A stretch of DNA of 12,672 nt from UHGV virus genome UHGV-0126747. One strand, 5' to 3'. Of this stretch, positions 443 to 5,953 are shown piece after piece (position 1 is the stretch's first letter; each line of letters begins with the position of its first letter). This stretch comes from a virus. The translations under genes and the position numbers were made by a program. Under the pieces are notes generated by a model that saw nothing but the letters and a program-made list of their open reading frames with translations, was not told the origin of the DNA and made no database searches.

Positions 443-510
443 GTCAATATTTCCTAATCCGATTTGTTGATGCCGAAGCCCTGACTGTTACAGCAGTTGG
501 GGCTTCAACT
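443..510 (+). ncRNA. sar: Candidate sar-like antisense RNA, complementary to the ant ribosome-binding site and the arc-ant intercistronic region
   Basis: Plus-strand extended -10 TGcTATACT at 428-436 would start transcription near 443, antisense to the ant SD and start codon. A hairpin (stem 475-481 with 500-506) followed by a short T run at 510-512 sits about 68 nt downstream. P22 is known to make a 68-69 nt sar RNA in this position. No strong -35 is seen and the 3' U-tract is weak. Confidence 0.4.
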
Positions 511-686: not shown

Positions 687-707
687 ATAGGTCCACGGTG
701 GACCTAT
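687..707. promoter_or_regulatory. Mnt operator, a perfect 21-bp palindrome ATAGGTCCACGGTGGACCTAT
   Basis: The palindrome is read directly from the sequence and matches the P22 Mnt operator as I recall it. It overlaps the predicted Pant transcription start. Confidence 0.85.
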
Positions 708-740
708 TGAGAATATAGTAGAGTGCTTCTATCATGTCAA
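704..740 (-). promoter_or_regulatory. Pant promoter: -35 TTGACA (735-740), 17-bp spacer, -10 TATATT (712-717) on the minus strand; start predicted near 704-706
   Basis: Consensus -35 and near-consensus -10 with ideal spacing, read from the reverse complement. The Arc operator fills the spacer and the Mnt operator covers the start site, which is the known P22 arrangement. Confidence 0.75.
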
Positions 741-762: not shown

Positions 763-1017
763 ATGGCTAGAGATGATCCGCACTTTAACTTCCGTATGCC
801 TTTGGAAGTAAGAGAAAAATTGAAATTAAGAGCCGAGGCTAACGGAAGGTCAATGAACTCTGAGTTATTACAAATCGTTCAGGATGCACTATCAAAACCA
901 TCACCGATTACAGGATATCGCGACGAAGCTGAACGCTTGGCTGATCAGCAGGCTGAGCAGTTCAAGGCTATAGTGTTTGAGACACTTAAAAAGATTTATG
1001 AAAAGGATTTGAAATGA
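763..1017 (+). CDS. mnt: Mnt repressor (maintenance of lysogeny; represses Pant)
   Basis: Track ORF MARDDPHFNFRMPLEVREKLKLRAEANGRSMNSELLQIVQDALSKPSPITGYR... is recognisably P22 Mnt (RHH N-terminal domain, divergent C-terminal tail). GGAG Shine-Dalgarno at 752-755, 7 nt before the ATG. Confidence 0.9.
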   Translation: MARDDPHFNFRMPLEVREKLKLRAEANGRSMNSELLQIVQDALSKPSPITGYRDEAERLADQQAEQFKAIVFETLKKIYEKDLK

Positions 1018-1349
1018 GATTTCTATCACTGTTCTTGTTAGCAGTTGTCTCTTCTTCCAGTGCTGAGCTGCGCGAGCTTCAAACGGGTAATGACCTTCTT
1101 TACAACATTCAACAAGGTAAAAAGGGTGATGATTTTTCATCGCTTTACATTACTGGATATTTGCGCGGAGTAACTGACTCATTGATACTAATTGGTTCTC
1201 TATGTCCTCCTGATGGCGTTGACATGTATCAATACACCGATATCGTTGAGAAATATCTAAACAAAAACCCAGAATCAAGAAATGAGAGTGCAGTTATACT
1301 AACCGCCCTAGCAGTAGGAAAAACATTTCCGTGCAAAAAGAATCAATAA
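1014..1349 (+). CDS. Hypothetical small secreted protein (111 aa) with N-terminal signal peptide; moron, possible lysogenic-conversion or superinfection-exclusion function
   Basis: Start ATG overlaps the mnt stop (ATGA at 1014-1017), indicating translational coupling. N-terminus MRFLSLFLLAVVSSSSA is a typical Sec signal peptide without a lipobox. Two Cys residues in the mature part. The DNA is visibly more AT-rich than the flanking phage genes. Confidence 0.6.
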   Translation: MRFLSLFLLAVVSSSSAELRELQTGNDLLYNIQQGKKGDDFSSLYITGYLRGVTDSLILIGSLCPPDGVDMYQYTDIVEKYLNKNPESRNESAVILTALAVGKTFPCKKNQ

Positions 1350-1364
1350 CAATAAGGGCTTAAA

Positions 1365-1754
1365 ATGAAATTGATTATAGCAATGGCTTTCCTTGTCTTC
1401 TCTTTTTCTGTCTCAGCAGAGTGCTGGGTCGTTGGAGATATGCACGGAATAAGCTATTCAGAACGAAATAATTTTCAACCGGAAGAAGATGGTTTTAGTG
1501 GAACATTCATCATTAAGACAAACGGTGAAGATGCCAGTATCACATATTCTGGGACGGATGCGGGCGGCATGGCTTACAAAGCATTGTCTAAAAACTCCAT
1601 CATTGGAATCGGCGCGAATGGCGAAACTCAACGAGTTATCGACTCATGGGTAATACATCCTAATGGAACAGTTTTAATGTCGAAAACCATTTCTGGTTAT
1701 GGGAATATGGATTCAACCAAAGCTTTTGTTGGAAAAGTAAAAAGAAAATGTTAA
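1365..1754 (+). CDS. Hypothetical small secreted protein (129 aa) with N-terminal signal peptide; Gly/Ser/Thr-rich, likely beta-rich fold
   Basis: AAGGG Shine-Dalgarno about 7 nt upstream of the ATG, 15 nt after the previous stop. Signal peptide MKLIIAMAFLVFSFSVSA. Cys immediately after the predicted cleavage site and Cys as the last residue. AT-rich like the preceding ORF. Confidence 0.6.
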   Translation: MKLIIAMAFLVFSFSVSAECWVVGDMHGISYSERNNFQPEEDGFSGTFIIKTNGEDASITYSGTDAGGMAYKALSKNSIIGIGANGETQRVIDSWVIHPNGTVLMSKTISGYGNMDSTKAFVGKVKRKC

Positions 1755-1778: not shown

Positions 1779-3617
1779 TTACTGCTGTGTTGCCTCAGTA
1801 GCAAGCAGCGGCCTGATGGCATTTGCAGCGTTACTCAACGCTCTTTCATAGGCTGGCGTTCCAGCTTTAGTGTTTGCCAGACGTAAGAGAGCATTCCTTG
1901 CTGCTTTGGACTCATACAAACGCATCATTGCACCAAAGCCAGCCTCAAGCCCCATTGATACACCAAGAGTCGCAGTTGCGCCAATCGTCCTTATCCTGTT
2001 GGCTTGTGATTGCCCCGTCTGAGTTACTACATTTGCGGTGTCTGACCTTGCTGTTTGCTGTAGAACTTCATGAAGAGCATCAAGCTCTTTCATGTGCTTT
2101 CCAGAAAAAATAGTGTTGTAAATTTCACCGCCTGACTGAGATTTCAGCTTATTAACTTCAGTGATGAACTTGGCTGGAGAGTCACCGGCCTTTTCCGCTA
2201 TTTTGCTGACGTAAGCTGCACGCATAGCATCTTTCCCTTTATCATCCATGGCGCTCCATATTCGTTTCACGTCAGATGGTTTTCTGCTTAATACAACGGT
2301 ATTTATAAGTTCAGGACTGGCTTCACTGCTTGCCTTGTTGAGCTTGTTAGCAATGTTTTTATTAAGCACCTTATTATAAACGTTTGCATAATCGGAATTT
2401 GCTTTAAGGTATTTTGCTGCGTCTGATGCACCGAGGTTTTTAGCAACTGCGTTACGAAGGTCTTTTGACATTGCATTCTCTACCATATTGGTAGCTGCTT
2501 TTGCCTGGTTGGGGAAGACCATAGCATCTCCCTGAACATTAGATCTAAATGCTGTTCTGTGCTGACGCAAGAGATCAAACGTAACATCCAAATCAGTTGC
2601 AGGGTTTGCTAATTCTTCACGTAGGTTACGCAAGGATGTAAGCAGGCTTTGATTGGCAGACGTCCCAAGCCGTTCCTGTCTTGCGATCGCTGTATTCAGA
2701 GCATTCATGGTATTTGTGGTATCAACTGCGGCATTACCCATTTTATTGGTGACGTCATTGATAACAGCGCCAGCGGCATCCTTCCGCCCCCTTAACGTGG
2801 TGGTAAGAGATTTCACCACATCATCAGGGTTGTACTCACCAAAACGGTCAAAATAATTACTTACCAGCTTACTACGCGTTGCATATTGCTCCGCTCGCTT
2901 TGAGCCTGTCCCGAGCAAAGCCCCCTCGGCATCCTGAGTTAGGCCGCGAGTGAAAGCATTTTTCGGCGGGATAACATCAGATGTCATTGGTGTCACGCCC
3001 ATCGATTCTGATGTGGCAATTTTCTTCGCCACTTCTGGCGCAATATCACCTTTTATAGCCGTTATTCCACGCCCTATTCCCTTTGCTGCTGCGGAAAGAA
3101 CACCCTGAGTGGCAAGGTTAACTCCGGCATTTTTAGCTGCATTTTGTGCGAAATCGCCTTTCTGATTTGCGGCCTCTGCCAGTGATCCAATAGCCATGCT
3201 TCCTGCCGTTCCAACTCCTGGAACTAAATACCCACCAATTGTTTCACCGGCTTGCGCGTAGGGGTCTGTCGGTCTGTCTACTGGACGATAAACATCATCC
3301 AAAACCTTGGGTCCACCAAGCCCCTGACTGATTGCATTAATCAGACTTGCGCCGCCCTGCAATACGTCAAATGGTATGTTTACCAGACCACGACCAGCCT
3401 GTTCTGCAATTTGCCCTGCACTTTGACCACCAGTGAGCCAATCGCCAGCTTGTTGCATCAATGATGATTCTTCCCGTGTTGGTGCATTATTGGCCTGATT
3501 AACTGTTTGTTGCTGAACAGCCTGACCAGCAAAATACTCATCAATGGCGGTGCCAATATCTTCGGTGCTCGTACCATCAGGAAAGGTAAATGTCTTACCG
3601 TTTGCAGTTACTTTCAT
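1779..3617 (-). CDS. Ejection (DNA-transfer) protein, gp16-like by position and size; 612 aa from the second of two tandem ATGs
   Basis: Long open frame ending 24 bp from the convergent plus-strand cassette. The start overlaps the upstream stop in ATGATGA, with GGTGG upstream better spaced for the second ATG. Ala/Gln/Asn/Gly-rich composition typical of podovirus ejection proteins. It is the last late-operon gene before the immunity region, as gene 16 (609 aa as I recall) is in P22. The product call is by synteny and size, not by recognised sequence. Confidence 0.7.
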
Positions 3618-5203
3618 CATTCCACCGTAAATTGAATGCCTGATTTTGAGGTATATGATCCAACCTGATTCCGTGGTTCTCCTGAAGGTGTCGAATCTTG
3701 TGCTGGCGCTGCGTCAGTATTCATTGACATATACCGCTTAACGGCACTCCCCAATGATTCACCTTTTTTAACATCCAACCCCAATATCTGACCGCCATTA
3801 CGCGATTGTCCAGGGTTGCCATTCGCGCTCATCCACTCGGCTTTAAACTCATTAAACTGCGCGTTTCGTCGCTCAAGGTTTGCCATTGCATCAAGCCATC
3901 TTGCGACCGTCTCAGGGTTATCCATGTCAGTTGGCGCACCCTGTCGAACGATCTCAACGTCTTTATCCGTTGCTGGGCCGGGAGGTAGGAATTTAAGAAC
4001 CTGACTGTTAACAAGGGCATTTTGGCGAATGCGCAAATCACGCAATGTTGTATCGCTTCCGGTAAGTTTTGCGAACATGTTCTGTGCGTTACCGAACAAA
4101 CCTGTCGTTGGTTTTTCTGCTCTGAACTGTTGAGCAAGCGCACTCATAGAATTGGCTGAGTTTGATGATGCTGTAGCATTGTTTACAGCCGTCTCGATGC
4201 CTTTTTCCATGTTTACTGACAGCTTAGGTGCTTCGCTAATCAACTGCTGAGCCTTTTCCTGCGCTTGCTGCATCTTAAACCCGAACTCTTGCTGATCCAG
4301 AGCCAAGCGTTGTGCTGCGATATTGTGCCCAGTCATTGCTGACTGATAGGAAAGGTTTTGCCCTCTCGCCTGAAGTGCTTCACCAGCCTGATTGCTGCGG
4401 ATTGTCTCTGCCAGCCTGCCTCGGTCAATTTCACGACCAGCCATATTATCCTGAACAGCAAACGCCTTTTCTGGTCCAAGCGCACCGAGAGACATAGTAG
4501 TCAGCATGTGTGATAGCTGCTCTGGATTCTGGATAACATACAAAGCGGCACCAACGGTGGTTGCACCTGTCAGGGAAAAATATTCAATCGTCGATGAACC
4601 AAAGCAGACGATAAAGTCTCGCCATGTACCTATGCCGATGATGCCGTCAGGCTGCGATTCTGCACGATATTGTGCGCTGTAGCGGTCAGGGTGCGATTCG
4701 TCTTCAAGGTCAGTGATAAACCATGAATCCGTGCCGTCTTTTGACCACGCATAACGCCCACGTAAACGCGTAATGTCGCGAACCGAACCTAACTCATACT
4801 GAGTGAATCCGCTGTCTGTAGGCCAGTTTGAGACTGTTTTAACCGTTCCATCATAGCGATACTCGACCAGTTGACCATTAACGCCTACCGCCTGAGATGT
4901 TCGACCATGCGCCATTGATACGCGACCACTTCCGGCAACATCACCGACCTCGCTTTCGCCCTTATACAACTTGCCACCGCAAACGCGATAAACAGCATTC
5001 TGCGCCATGTTGTACTCGACACCGCGCGATACACCATTCACATCAGAGCGTTTGGCAATGCCAGGGAATGAGCGAAGATATCCACTGCTGTTGAGGATTT
5101 CTTTGGGGGTTGCCAGCATATTCACTGGCAGATAGTCGATATAGTCAGCGTTTCTAAAGTCTTTGCCGACACCTTTCATAAGCGGAAGTTGCTGAATCGG
5201 CAT
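3617..5203 (-). CDS. Chimeric 528-aa protein: first ~220 residues resemble the N-terminal part of P22 gp10 (tail accessory factor); the remaining ~300 residues are unrelated to gp10, possibly the C-terminal part of an ejection protein (gp20-like)
   Basis: Start ATG overlaps the gp4 stop (TAATG). N-terminus [46 protein letters not shown]... matches my recollection of P22 gp10 up to about ...[14 protein letters not shown], then diverges into a Gln/Ala-rich sequence. The stop overlaps the start of the next ORF. Confidence 0.8.

Positions 5204-5703: not shown

Positions 5704-5953
<250 letters not shown>

What the first reader, a model, noticed from the sequence alone, without database searches (positions are those of the whole stretch)
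1014..1754. AT-rich two-gene cassette of small secreted proteins coupled to mnt, at the sieA position
Two ORFs (111 and 129 aa) follow mnt on the plus strand. The first start overlaps the mnt stop (ATGA), so both are probably expressed from Pmnt in the lysogen. Their DNA is visibly more AT-rich than the flanking phage genes, suggesting horizontal acquisition. In P22 this slot holds the superinfection-exclusion gene sieA. These are therefore candidates for a periplasm-acting exclusion or lysogenic-conversion module that I do not recognise.
Basis: partly seen in the sequence, partly recalled or inferred. Interest (0 to 1): 0.7.

Follow-up and report, generated by a model that had tools for sequence, protein, structure and literature searches.

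The report
Two exported prophage defence proteins
Right after the mnt repressor gene of an E. coli P22-like prophage lie two genes for small exported proteins, one a type VI secretion amidase-immunity protein (Rap1a/Tai4 family) and the other a relative of phage 434's P22-excluding Hex protein, so the lysogen is probably protected in its periplasm against bacterial and phage attack; both families were already known.

Summary
ORFs of 111 aa (1014-1349) and 129 aa (1365-1754) follow mnt, the first overlapping the mnt stop (ATGA). Both have Sec-type signal peptides and conserved Cys pairs. They fill the orf59a/sieA slot of P22, facing gene 16. GC is 39% against 50% for the structural genes, but mnt is equally AT-rich.

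Both proteins belong to recognisable families. ORF1 is a Rap1a/Tai4-family T6SS amidase-immunity protein (Pfam 55 bits against a cutoff of 28). Its AlphaFold model's top seven PDB hits are all Rap1a or Tai4, and RefSeq already gives it that name. No effector gene is nearby, so it is an orphan immunity gene coupled to mnt.

ORF2 belongs to the family of phage 434 Hex / Sf6 gp38 (same PHROG; 29% identity over the full length). Hex is the lysogen-expressed "heterologous exclusion" gene that blocks P22. The family (137 clusters) is uniformly signal-peptide-bearing, with an invariant N-terminal Cys and a C-terminal Cys, and is predicted to be a beta-barrel. This conflicts with the published cytoplasmic RecA/repressor mechanism.

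The pair recurs at 65%/49% identity in other P22-like prophages, but ORF2 usually occurs without ORF1. Verdict: new members of known kinds in a known moron slot, of moderate interest.

The parts
707..740 (.). Divergent, overlapping Pmnt (+, 707-735) and Pant (-, 740-712) promoter-like sites. Pmnt is the presumed promoter of mnt-ORF1-ORF2.
   Evidence: 10/12 and 11/12 matches to the sigma-70 consensus. Same relative layout as the annotated Pmnt/Pant of P22.
763..1017 (+). mnt repressor gene. Its stop overlaps the ORF1 start (ATGA at 1014-1017).
   Evidence: Pfam Arc E 3.7e-28 and Repressor_Mnt E 1.3e-11; sequence.
1014..1349 (+). ORF1, 111 aa: orphan Rap1a/Tai4-family T6SS amidase-immunity protein, phage clade (phrog_3870).
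   Evidence: PF18602 55.3 bits against cutoff 27.7, model positions 1-90 of 90. AF2 model pLDDT 80.8 with 4 helices. The Foldseek top 7 are all Rap1a or Tai4, TM 0.66-0.78. RefSeq name.
1014..1064 (+). Predicted Sec signal peptide of ORF1 (MRFLSLFLLAVVSSSSA | ELRE).
   Evidence: Hydrophobicity and the -3/-1 rule. Conserved in homologs, and the Pfam match starts at residue 24.
1365..1754 (+). ORF2, 129 aa: member of the phage 434 Hex / Sf6 gp38 family (phrog_2651), a predicted exported 8-9-strand beta-barrel with a Cys20...Cys129 pair.
   Evidence: phrog_2651 E 2.3e-60, and Hex hits the same PHROG at E 1.4e-58. BLASTP to Hex: 29% identity, E 8e-15. AF2 pLDDT 84.9. 137 family clusters.
1365..1418 (+). 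Predicted Sec signal peptide of ORF2 (MKLIIAMAFLVFSFSVSA | ECW). The RefSeq start at 1440 removes it.
   Evidence: family-wide; variant with a diverged signal peptide of equal length; RefSeq start.
1414..1414 (.). Mosaic boundary. DNA identity to the widespread ORF2-only prophages and to phage Emek (95-97%) begins here, at the end of the signal-peptide codons.
1779..3620 (-). Gene 16-type ejection (DNA transfer) protein, convergent with ORF2. It is the landmark of the sieA slot and a possible target class for exclusion.
   Evidence: phrog_770 E 1.6e-278; P22 layout; PMC10883804 (SieA escape mutations map to gp16 and gp20).

Best explanation
The mnt-gene 16 interval of this defective E. coli P22-like prophage is a cargo slot. 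It holds two unrelated genes for small, Sec-exported, disulfide-bonded periplasmic proteins, transcribed with mnt from Pmnt in the lysogen.

ORF1 is an orphan Rap1a/Tai4-family immunity protein. It most likely binds and blocks Tae4/Ssp-type peptidoglycan DL-endopeptidase effectors injected into the periplasm by the type VI secretion systems of competing bacteria.

ORF2 is a Hex-family beta-barrel. Its one studied relative, phage 434 Hex, makes lysogens exclude phage P22. ORF2 most likely acts in the periplasm as a superinfection-exclusion factor, plausibly by interfering with DNA delivery by P22-like phages. It occupies the very place where P22 keeps sieA.

Shown here: the genes, their family memberships, the export signals, the coupling to mnt, the recurrent synteny and the absence of a partner effector gene. 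Inferred: expression from Pmnt, periplasmic location, and both molecular activities and their targets.
For: ORF1:
- Pfam Rap1a above the gathering score, over the full model length.
- All-alpha model whose top 7 PDB matches are Rap1a (3zfi, rmsd 1.8 A), Ssp1-Rap1a (4bi8) and A. tumefaciens Tai4 / Tae4-Tai4 (6ije, 6ijf). After these the hits drop to TM 0.33.
- The two invariant Cys (C64, C107) align with the Cys of Tai4. Rap structure depends on a disulfide (PMC6099711).
- Signal peptide.
- In every context seen the gene directly follows mnt in a P22-like prophage, usually with overlapping stop/start, and no effector gene is nearby: E. coli, Serratia sp., S. fonticola, Silvania and 16/16 IMG/VR loci.

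ORF2:
- Same PHROG as 434 Hex, with full-length 29% identity and shared motifs.
- Hex sits directly after cI with a 4-nt overlap on the PRM transcript (PMC3564112), the same repressor-coupled, lysogen-expressed logic.
- Hex was defined by exclusion of P22 (PMC3564112, citing Susskind & Botstein 1980).
- Family-wide export features: 114/114 have a hydrophobic leader, 105/114 a small residue at -1, 112/114 a C-terminal Cys, and 112/114 an even Cys count.
- The signal peptide is kept at equal length although its codons diverged.
- 77 of 80 viral loci have the gene abutting gene 16, the slot of sieA.

Retention in decayed prophages suggests benefit to the host.
Against: - No experiment exists on either protein.
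- ORF1 is only 24-26% identical to characterised Rap1a/Tai4, and those proteins are effector-specific, so the target effector cannot be named. ORF1 does not hit the separate Pfam Tai4 family of the Salmonella/Enterobacter type.
- The only biochemical paper on Hex assigns it a cytoplasmic role, blocking RecA-stimulated repressor cleavage (PMC3564112). If that is correct, ORF2 would be a lysogeny stabiliser.
- ORF2 is 29% identical to Hex, so specificity and even function may differ.
- Several distant family members are chromosomal singletons with no phage context, which a purely anti-phage role does not obviously explain.
- The fold search gives only a generic beta-barrel.
- Expression from Pmnt is inferred from consensus matches and the P22 analogy.
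Confidence: 0.6

Rival explanations
1. ORF2 is a second periplasmic immunity or inhibitor protein against an incoming antibacterial toxin (a T6SS effector, bacteriocin or lysozyme-type enzyme), so the pair forms an immunity-gene array.
Against: None of 8 distant contexts has a neighbouring T6SS, toxin or effector gene. There is no Pfam, NCBIfam or PADLOC match, including MliC. No solved immunity protein is among the significant structural hits. The only studied member, Hex, has a phage-exclusion phenotype (PMC3564112). ORF2 mostly occurs without ORF1.
Confidence: 0.15
2. ORF2 works as published for Hex: in the cytoplasm it shields the prophage's LexA-like C2 repressor from RecA-stimulated autocleavage, lowering spontaneous induction.
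For: PMC3564112: deleting hex raises spontaneous induction 30-fold in recA+ cells but not in recA- cells. A refolded fragment (sHex) inhibits cleavage of the 434 and P22 repressors in vitro. ORF2 resides in a P22-like prophage.
Against: All 114 family members analysed carry a signal-peptide-like leader and paired Cys. The paper never considers export: 'signal', 'periplasm' and 'membrane' each occur 0 times. sHex starts exactly at the predicted signal-peptidase site, E43 = ANS|E, and comprises only about half of the predicted barrel. Full-length Hex was toxic on overexpression, and complementation was partial. Family members occur in chromosomes with no prophage or repressor nearby and in a repressor-less remnant. 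The present prophage copy is defective, so stabilising it brings little benefit.
Confidence: 0.12
3. ORF1 is not anti-T6SS. It is a phage-directed exclusion factor that inhibits a virion-borne cell-wall hydrolase of superinfecting phages, so both genes form one anti-phage module.
For: ORF1 sits in the superinfection-exclusion slot next to a Hex-like gene. This clade has been seen only in P22-like prophages. Some gene 16 proteins in these phages carry an SLT lytic transglycosylase domain. A Tai4-like gene also occurs in an unrelated phage.
Against: The characterised family members inhibit Tae4/Ssp cysteine amidases, not transglycosylases (PMC6099711). No Tae4-like domain was seen in the ejection proteins here. 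ORF1 and ORF2 occur independently of each other.
Confidence: 0.1
4. The two genes are neutral hitchhikers or decaying cargo without current function.
For: The prophage copy is defective, and the DNA is AT-rich and mosaic.
Against: The reading frames, signal peptides and Cys pairs are conserved at 49-67% identity. The genes are retained when most of the prophage is deleted. 25 E. coli genomes carry the cassette at 99% identity or more, with no disruptions noted.
Confidence: 0.03

Closest known systems
Rap1a (Serratia marcescens SMA2260) and Tai4 (Agrobacterium tumefaciens), T6SS amidase-immunity proteins, Pfam PF18602
   Same: ORF1 matches the family HMM over its full length and has the same all-alpha fold (TM 0.66-0.78). 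It has a signal peptide, the two conserved Cys, and a mature size of about 95 aa.
   Different: Identity is 24-26%. ORF1 is not encoded next to a Tae4/Ssp effector or in a T6SS cluster. It is translationally coupled to the mnt repressor of a P22-like prophage, so it is an orphan immunity gene carried as a phage moron. Its target effector is unknown.
Phage 434 Hex (= Sf6 gene 38 protein; 'repressor protection protein'), phrog_2651
   Same: ORF2 is in the same PHROG and aligns over its full length at 29% identity. It shares the leader, the 'ECW' start of the mature protein, the 'ETW' motif and the C-terminal 'VG-x-V-x-G-x-C'. Both lie in a lysogen-expressed operon downstream of a repressor gene.
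   Different: Hex follows cI in the immC region, whereas ORF2 lies in immI after mnt (and after ORF1), abutting gene 16. Hex's published mechanism is cytoplasmic (PMC3564112), which the family's export features contradict. Whether ORF2 excludes any phage is untested.
P22 SieA, an inner-membrane superinfection-exclusion protein
   Same: ORF2 has the same genomic position and orientation, convergent with gene 16 and on the mnt strand. [quoted passage not shown]
   Different: There is no sequence similarity. SieA has three transmembrane segments, no signal peptide and its own promoter (PMC10883804). ORF2 is a soluble exported barrel with no hydrophobic segment in the mature part.
Orphan T6SS immunity genes and acquired interbacterial defence clusters on mobile elements (for example Bacteroidales orphan Tdi, PMC10470768; the putative Salmonella Typhi immunity islet, PMC7400221)
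   Same: An immunity gene without its effector, carried on a mobile element and expected to protect against non-kin attackers.
   Different: Here the carrier is a temperate phage, and expression is wired to a phage repressor gene. I found no paper that mentions both Rap1a and prophages in this sense.
Periplasm- or envelope-acting phage exclusion proteins such as P1 Sim, T4 Sp and T5 Llp (from my own knowledge, not tested here)
   Same: Small exported or envelope proteins made by a resident phage that block entry of incoming phage DNA. This is what ORF2 is proposed to work like.
   Different: No homology was tested or expected. This is a functional analogy only.
MliC/PliC-type periplasmic lysozyme inhibitors
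   Same: Small exported 8-stranded beta-barrels that often occur as stand-alone genes.

Membership tests
Rap1a/Tai4 immunity proteins (PF18602) | Matches the family profile above the curated threshold over most of its length | tested here: met
   55.3 bits against a cutoff of 27.7, E 9.7e-15, model positions 1-90 of 90.
Rap1a/Tai4 immunity proteins (PF18602) | Compact all-alpha fold superposable on solved Rap1a/Tai4 | tested here: met
   AF2 pLDDT 80.8 with 4 helices. The top 7 Foldseek hits are 3zfi, 4bi8, 6ije and 6ijf at TM 0.65-0.78, and the next hit has TM 0.33. E-values are modest (1.4e-3).
Rap1a/Tai4 immunity proteins (PF18602) | Periplasmic: cleavable signal peptide and a structural disulfide | tested here: met
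   Leader MRFLSLFLLAVVSSSSA|E. C64 and C107 are invariant in the clade and align with the Tai4 Cys. This is a sequence-level test only; localisation was not measured.
Rap1a/Tai4 immunity proteins (PF18602) | Encoded next to its cognate Tae4/Ssp effector, in or near a T6SS cluster | tested here: not met
   No effector or T6SS gene is in the window or in any homolog context. It is therefore an orphan immunity gene.
Rap1a/Tai4 immunity proteins (PF18602) | Binds and neutralises a Tae4-family DL-endopeptidase | not testable with these tools
   Needs binding and competition assays.
Hex family (phage 434 Hex / Sf6 gp38; phrog_2651) | Sequence membership in the same family as Hex | tested here: met
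   ORF2 hits phrog_2651 at E 2.3e-60 and Hex at E 1.4e-58. BLASTP gives 29% identity, E 8e-15, over the full length. Hex-type sequences appear among the profile hits (P0135).
Hex family (phage 434 Hex / Sf6 gp38; phrog_2651) | Lysogen-expressed: co-transcribed with a prophage repressor gene | tested here: inconclusive
   The arrangement fits: Pmnt-like promoter, no terminator, a 15-nt gap after ORF1, and an ATGA overlap between mnt and ORF1. Hex overlaps cI in the same way. Transcription was not measured.
Hex family (phage 434 Hex / Sf6 gp38; phrog_2651) | Excludes superinfecting P22 (the defining phenotype) | not testable with these tools
   Needs phage challenge of cells expressing ORF2.
Hex family (phage 434 Hex / Sf6 gp38; phrog_2651) | Inhibits RecA-stimulated repressor autocleavage in the cytoplasm (published activity) | not testable with these tools
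   The sequence features argue against a cytoplasmic location, but the activity was not tested.
SieA superinfection-exclusion proteins | Homology to P22 SieA and an integral inner-membrane topology | tested here: not met
   BLASTP E 3.2. No hydrophobic segment in the mature ORF2 family: median maximum 19-residue KD of 0.8. Only the genomic position is shared.
MliC/PliC lysozyme inhibitors | Profile match or specific structural match | tested here: not met
Catalogued anti-phage defence systems (PADLOC) | Match to any PADLOC model | tested here: not met
   No hit for either protein.

The most novel reading that the evidence does not exclude
Hex-family proteins, 434 Hex included, are Sec-exported, disulfide-locked periplasmic beta-barrels that block entry of P22-like phages in the periplasm. 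The published cytoplasmic RecA/repressor mechanism would then be secondary or an artefact of using a refolded half-barrel fragment. In this prophage lineage the Hex-like gene is paired with an orphan Rap1a immunity gene, so a single repressor-driven transcript gives the lysogen a periplasmic shield against both phage DNA delivery and T6SS cell-wall effectors. The shield is useful enough to survive decay of the prophage.
Probability: 0.35. Interest if true: 0.65.

Novelty: new member of a known kind. Interest (0 to 1): 0.48.

Why it matters
If ORF1 works as its family predicts, temperate P22-like phages of E. coli and Serratia spread resistance to contact-dependent killing by type VI secretion. 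That would be a form of lysogenic conversion relevant to competition in the gut and in food-animal isolates, which are the sources of the genomes carrying the cassette. I could not find this described for this phage group.

If ORF2 works like Hex and is periplasmic, two things follow. First, P22-like phages have a second, SieA-independent way of guarding the same step, encoded in the same slot. Second, the 45-year-old hex phenotype becomes mechanistically testable, and the one published mechanism needs re-examination.

Practically, RefSeq start calls for ORF2 (104 and 122 aa) remove the signal peptide and hide the nature of this family.

Tried and rejected
- **Libraries with no hits:** NCBIfam and PADLOC found nothing for either protein.
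- **PDB sequence searches:** ORF2 as a single sequence and as a 114-member profile gave only chance-level hits. ORF1 by sequence gave only weak Tai4 hits at E ~0.1, so a structure-based test was needed.
- **AFDB50** was not available.
- **Genome scan with the ORF1 profile:** returned one locus, which proved useful.
- **Lysozyme-inhibitor idea for ORF2:** rejected for lack of any profile or specific structural match.
- **T6SS-immunity idea for ORF2:** tested through 8 neighbourhoods, none with a toxin gene. Kept as a minor rival.
- **Homology to SieA/orf59a:** rejected.
- **Relatedness of ORF1 and ORF2 to each other:** hhalign aligns only the signal peptides.
- **Literature:** searches for phage-borne Rap1a/Tai4 found nothing specific.
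Full report
**What the window is.** The 12.7-kb window is the immI region plus the late and structural genes of a P22-like (Lederbergvirus-type) prophage of Escherichia coli. On the minus strand lie terminase, portal, scaffold, coat, gp4-like, a gp10/gp20 fusion and a gene 16-type ejection protein, then arc and the start of ant. mnt is on the plus strand. The 741-nt interval of the finding is 100% identical to a prophage at the tRNA-Arg/yfdC site of E. coli 20AR0300, and 99% or more identical in 23 further complete genomes.

**Checking the observation.** The two ORFs are at the stated coordinates (1014-1349, 111 aa; 1365-1754, 129 aa).
- The ORF1 ATG overlaps the mnt TGA as ATGA.
- A Pmnt-like promoter (707-735) faces a Pant-like promoter (740-712). 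No terminator-like element separates mnt from the end of ORF2, and only 15 nt separate ORF1 from ORF2.
- Both N-termini look like Sec signal peptides, with A-x-A-type sites SSA|E and VSA|E.
- The cassette is 39.1% GC (GC3 0.32 and 0.35) against 49.7% for the structural genes, lower than any 741-nt window there (minimum 42.8%). However, mnt is 40.8%, so the low-GC block includes mnt.
- In P22 the order is gene 16 | sieA (own promoter) | terminator | orf59a | mnt. ORF1 therefore takes the place of orf59a and ORF2 that of sieA, ending 24 nt from the gene 16 stop.

**ORF1 is a Rap1a/Tai4-family immunity protein.**
- Pfam PF18602 matches over the full model length at 55.3 bits against a gathering score of 27.7. 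RefSeq already calls the protein 'Rap1a/Tai family immunity protein'.
- Sequence-only comparison with the PDB is weak (Tai4, E ~0.1), but it aligns both Cys residues.
- An AlphaFold model (pLDDT 80.8) has four helices after the leader. Its seven best Foldseek matches are all Rap1a or Tai4, free or bound to Ssp1 or Tae4, at TM 0.65-0.78. The hits then drop sharply to TM 0.33.
- Rap proteins are periplasmic, disulfide-dependent inhibitors of the Tae4-family peptidoglycan endopeptidases Ssp1 and Ssp2, and they are effector-specific (PMC6099711).
- ORF1 has no effector gene beside it, so it is an orphan immunity gene.
- ORF1 does not hit the separate Pfam family of the Salmonella/Enterobacter Tai4 type. 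At 24-26% identity to solved members its target cannot be named.

**Where the ORF1 clade lives.** Every relative found (60-98% identity) sits immediately after mnt in a P22-like prophage, usually with overlapping stop and start.

| Source | Arrangement |
|---|---|
| Serratia sp. JSRIV002 | mnt-Rap1a-gene 16 |
| Serratia fonticola | mnt-Rap1a-Rap1a paralog-gene 16 |
| Another E. coli prophage | mnt-Rap1a-ORF2-like-gene 16, at 65% and 49% identity |
| Silvania confinis | decayed island keeping only an mnt fragment, Rap1a, an ORF2-like gene and a gene 16 remnant beside an integrase |
| IMG/VR viral contigs | 16 of 16 loci read mnt-Rap1a-Hex-like |

**ORF2 belongs to the Hex family.**
- ORF2 has no Pfam, NCBIfam or PADLOC match. 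It falls in phrog_2651 ('unknown function', E 2.3e-60).
- An exhaustive profile search found 137 clusters, nearly all 120-140 aa.
- tblastn against sequenced phages revealed full-length 29%-identical homologs in Sf6 (gene 38), HK633, HK446, Sf101, phage 434 and lambda imm434. In all of these the gene directly follows the cI repressor, and in 434 it is annotated 'repressor protection protein'. That gene is hex.
- Pairwise BLASTP gives E 8e-15, and Hex hits the same PHROG at E 1.4e-58.
- According to PMC3564112, Hex is co-transcribed with cI from PRM. It was named for 'heterologous exclusion' because lambda imm434 lysogens of Salmonella exclude P22 and hex mutants do not.
- The same paper reports that a refolded 6-kDa fragment (sHex) inhibits RecA-stimulated cleavage of the 434 and P22 repressors.

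**Hex-family proteins look exported.** In 114 aligned members:
- all 114 have a strongly hydrophobic segment (minimum mean KD 2.3) in the ~20 residues before an invariant Cys;
- 105 have A, S, G or T at the predicted -1 position;
- 106 have K or R in the n-region;
- 112 end in a conserved Cys;
- 112 have an even number of Cys (2 or 4) in the mature part;
- only 5 have a lipobox-like string, and the mature part has no transmembrane-like segment.

The AlphaFold model of ORF2 (pLDDT 84.9) is a 9-strand, all-beta barrel. The invariant Cys lies at the start of the first strand and the C-terminal Cys at the end of the last, so a disulfide could close the barrel. That is an inference, because the coordinates were not inspected.

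Structure searches find only generic barrels.

The common ORF2-only variant starts at a GTG behind AAGGAGG. It encodes a leader of the same length with diverged codons, and DNA identity rises to near 100% exactly at the cleavage site. This points to selection for export.

The Hex paper never mentions a signal sequence, periplasm or membrane, and it modelled a 158-aa ORF. Its sHex fragment begins at E43, which is the first residue after the predicted signal-peptidase site ANS|ECW. Full-length Hex was toxic when overexpressed. The sequence evidence therefore conflicts with a cytoplasmic site of action, although it does not disprove the reported activity.

**Relationship between the two genes.**
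- They are unrelated in sequence; profile-profile comparison aligns only the leaders.
- ORF2 is the commoner occupant of the slot. 148 of 5,426 complete E. coli genomes have it, but only 25 also have ORF1.
- Of 80 viral loci seeded with ORF2, 14 have Rap1a, 53 have mnt, a variable 0.4-1.9 kb insert and then the Hex-like gene, and 77 abut gene 16.
- Other prophages put different genes between mnt and ORF2.
- The 'cassette' is thus two independent modules that have nonetheless travelled together in at least two diverged versions.

**Is ORF2 a toxin-linked immunity protein?** Eight neighbourhoods of distant family members were examined.
- About five are in phage or mobile-element DNA. One of these lies just downstream of a putative repressor, opposite a Cro-like gene.
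- Three are chromosomal singletons.
- None is next to a T6SS or toxin gene.

This disfavours a cognate-immunity role but does not exclude an orphan-inhibitor role.

**Most likely mechanism.** In the lysogen, Pmnt drives mnt-ORF1-ORF2. This is inferred by analogy with P22, where mnt is a lysogen-expressed gene; the promoter layout matches. Both products are exported.
- ORF1 neutralises incoming Tae4/Ssp-type amidases (a family inference).
- ORF2 acts as a Hex-like exclusion factor in the periplasm, plausibly against the trans-periplasmic DNA-delivery apparatus of P22-like phages. That is the step SieA targets from the inner membrane (PMC10883804).

I put about 0.6 on this composite. Each family assignment stands at roughly 0.95, ORF1's anti-T6SS role at roughly 0.6-0.65, and ORF2's periplasmic exclusion role at roughly 0.4-0.45.

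**Novelty and interest.** Both proteins are new members of known families in a known cargo slot, and ORF1 is already named in RefSeq. Four points appear to be undescribed in the literature I could search:
- a T6SS immunity gene translationally coupled to mnt in P22-like prophages;
- the link between the sieA-slot 'hypothetical protein' and Hex;
- the family-wide export signature of Hex proteins;
- the retention of the pair in decayed prophages.

Interest is moderate (0.48).

Noticed in passing
window 3617-5203 (-): The 528-aa ORF is a fusion of the N-terminal half of gp10 (Phage_stabilise, model positions 1-223 of 469) with the C-terminal end of gp20 (Inj_translocase, positions 155-217 of 218). 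The genes for the gp10 C-terminus, needle gp26, gp14, gp7 and the gp20 N-terminus are missing. The best E. coli match spans 15.9 kb for this 12.7-kb window. This prophage copy should be unable to make infectious virions.
   Followed up: partly
window 444-510 (+): A sar antisense RNA (Rfam RF00262, 65.6 bits against a gathering score of 43, full length) lies between arc and ant, so the immI regulatory circuit is complete.
   Followed up: yes
window 1365-1440; L012/L013 3452-3473: RefSeq start calls for ORF2 and its variants (104 aa from ATG 1440; 122 aa from an internal ATG) cut off the signal peptide and, in the first case, the invariant Cys-Trp. The likely starts are ATG 1365 and a GTG behind AAGGAGG, both giving 129 aa.
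   Followed up: yes
window ~5752-5808 (-): The gp4-like tail accessory protein starts with a run of nine Ser-Gln repeats, MMLQ(SQ)9KK. This hexanucleotide repeat also creates long repeat-encoded ORFs in other frames, with (GS)n, (EP)n and (LW)n. It is a possible slippage-prone tract.
   Followed up: no
L019 2429-2905 (phage 434): The N-terminus of the published 'sHex' fragment (E43 of the 158-aa ORF model) coincides exactly with the predicted signal-peptidase cleavage site of Hex. Its C-terminus (N103) falls mid-barrel, so the assayed fragment is about half of the predicted domain.
   Followed up: partly
L018 7001-7715 (Serratia fonticola prophage): Two tandem, diverged Rap1a-family genes (112 and 119 aa) fill the mnt-gene 16 slot. 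This is an immunity-gene array on a phage.
   Followed up: partly
L011 2518-9008 (Silvania confinis): An island keeps only an mnt fragment, Rap1a, a Hex-like gene and a 268-aa gene 16 remnant. It is flanked by a 1080-aa SNF2-type helicase-like ORF and an integrase. It looks like a domesticated remnant, possibly inside a defence island.
   Followed up: partly
L014 2653-4058 (E. coli LR-25); L013 2916-3335: There are other occupants of the same slot: a 193-aa protein (phrog_23516) overlapping the mnt stop, a YobH-family gene between the Hex-like gene and gene 16, and a 138-aa minus-strand ORF (phrog_6823, weak PEGA hit). All are of unknown function.
   Followed up: no
L021 2932-3258 (phage DSL-LC04): A non-P22-like freshwater phage carries a Tai4/Rap1a-like gene (30% identity to ORF1) within a cluster of small early genes. 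Phage carriage of this immunity family is therefore not confined to P22-like phages.
   Followed up: no
L009 7214-8285 (metagenomic prophage): A distant Hex-family gene overlaps the stop of a 121-aa ORF that is divergent from a Cro/YdaS-like gene. This is another repressor-coupled placement of the family in an unrelated prophage.
   Followed up: no
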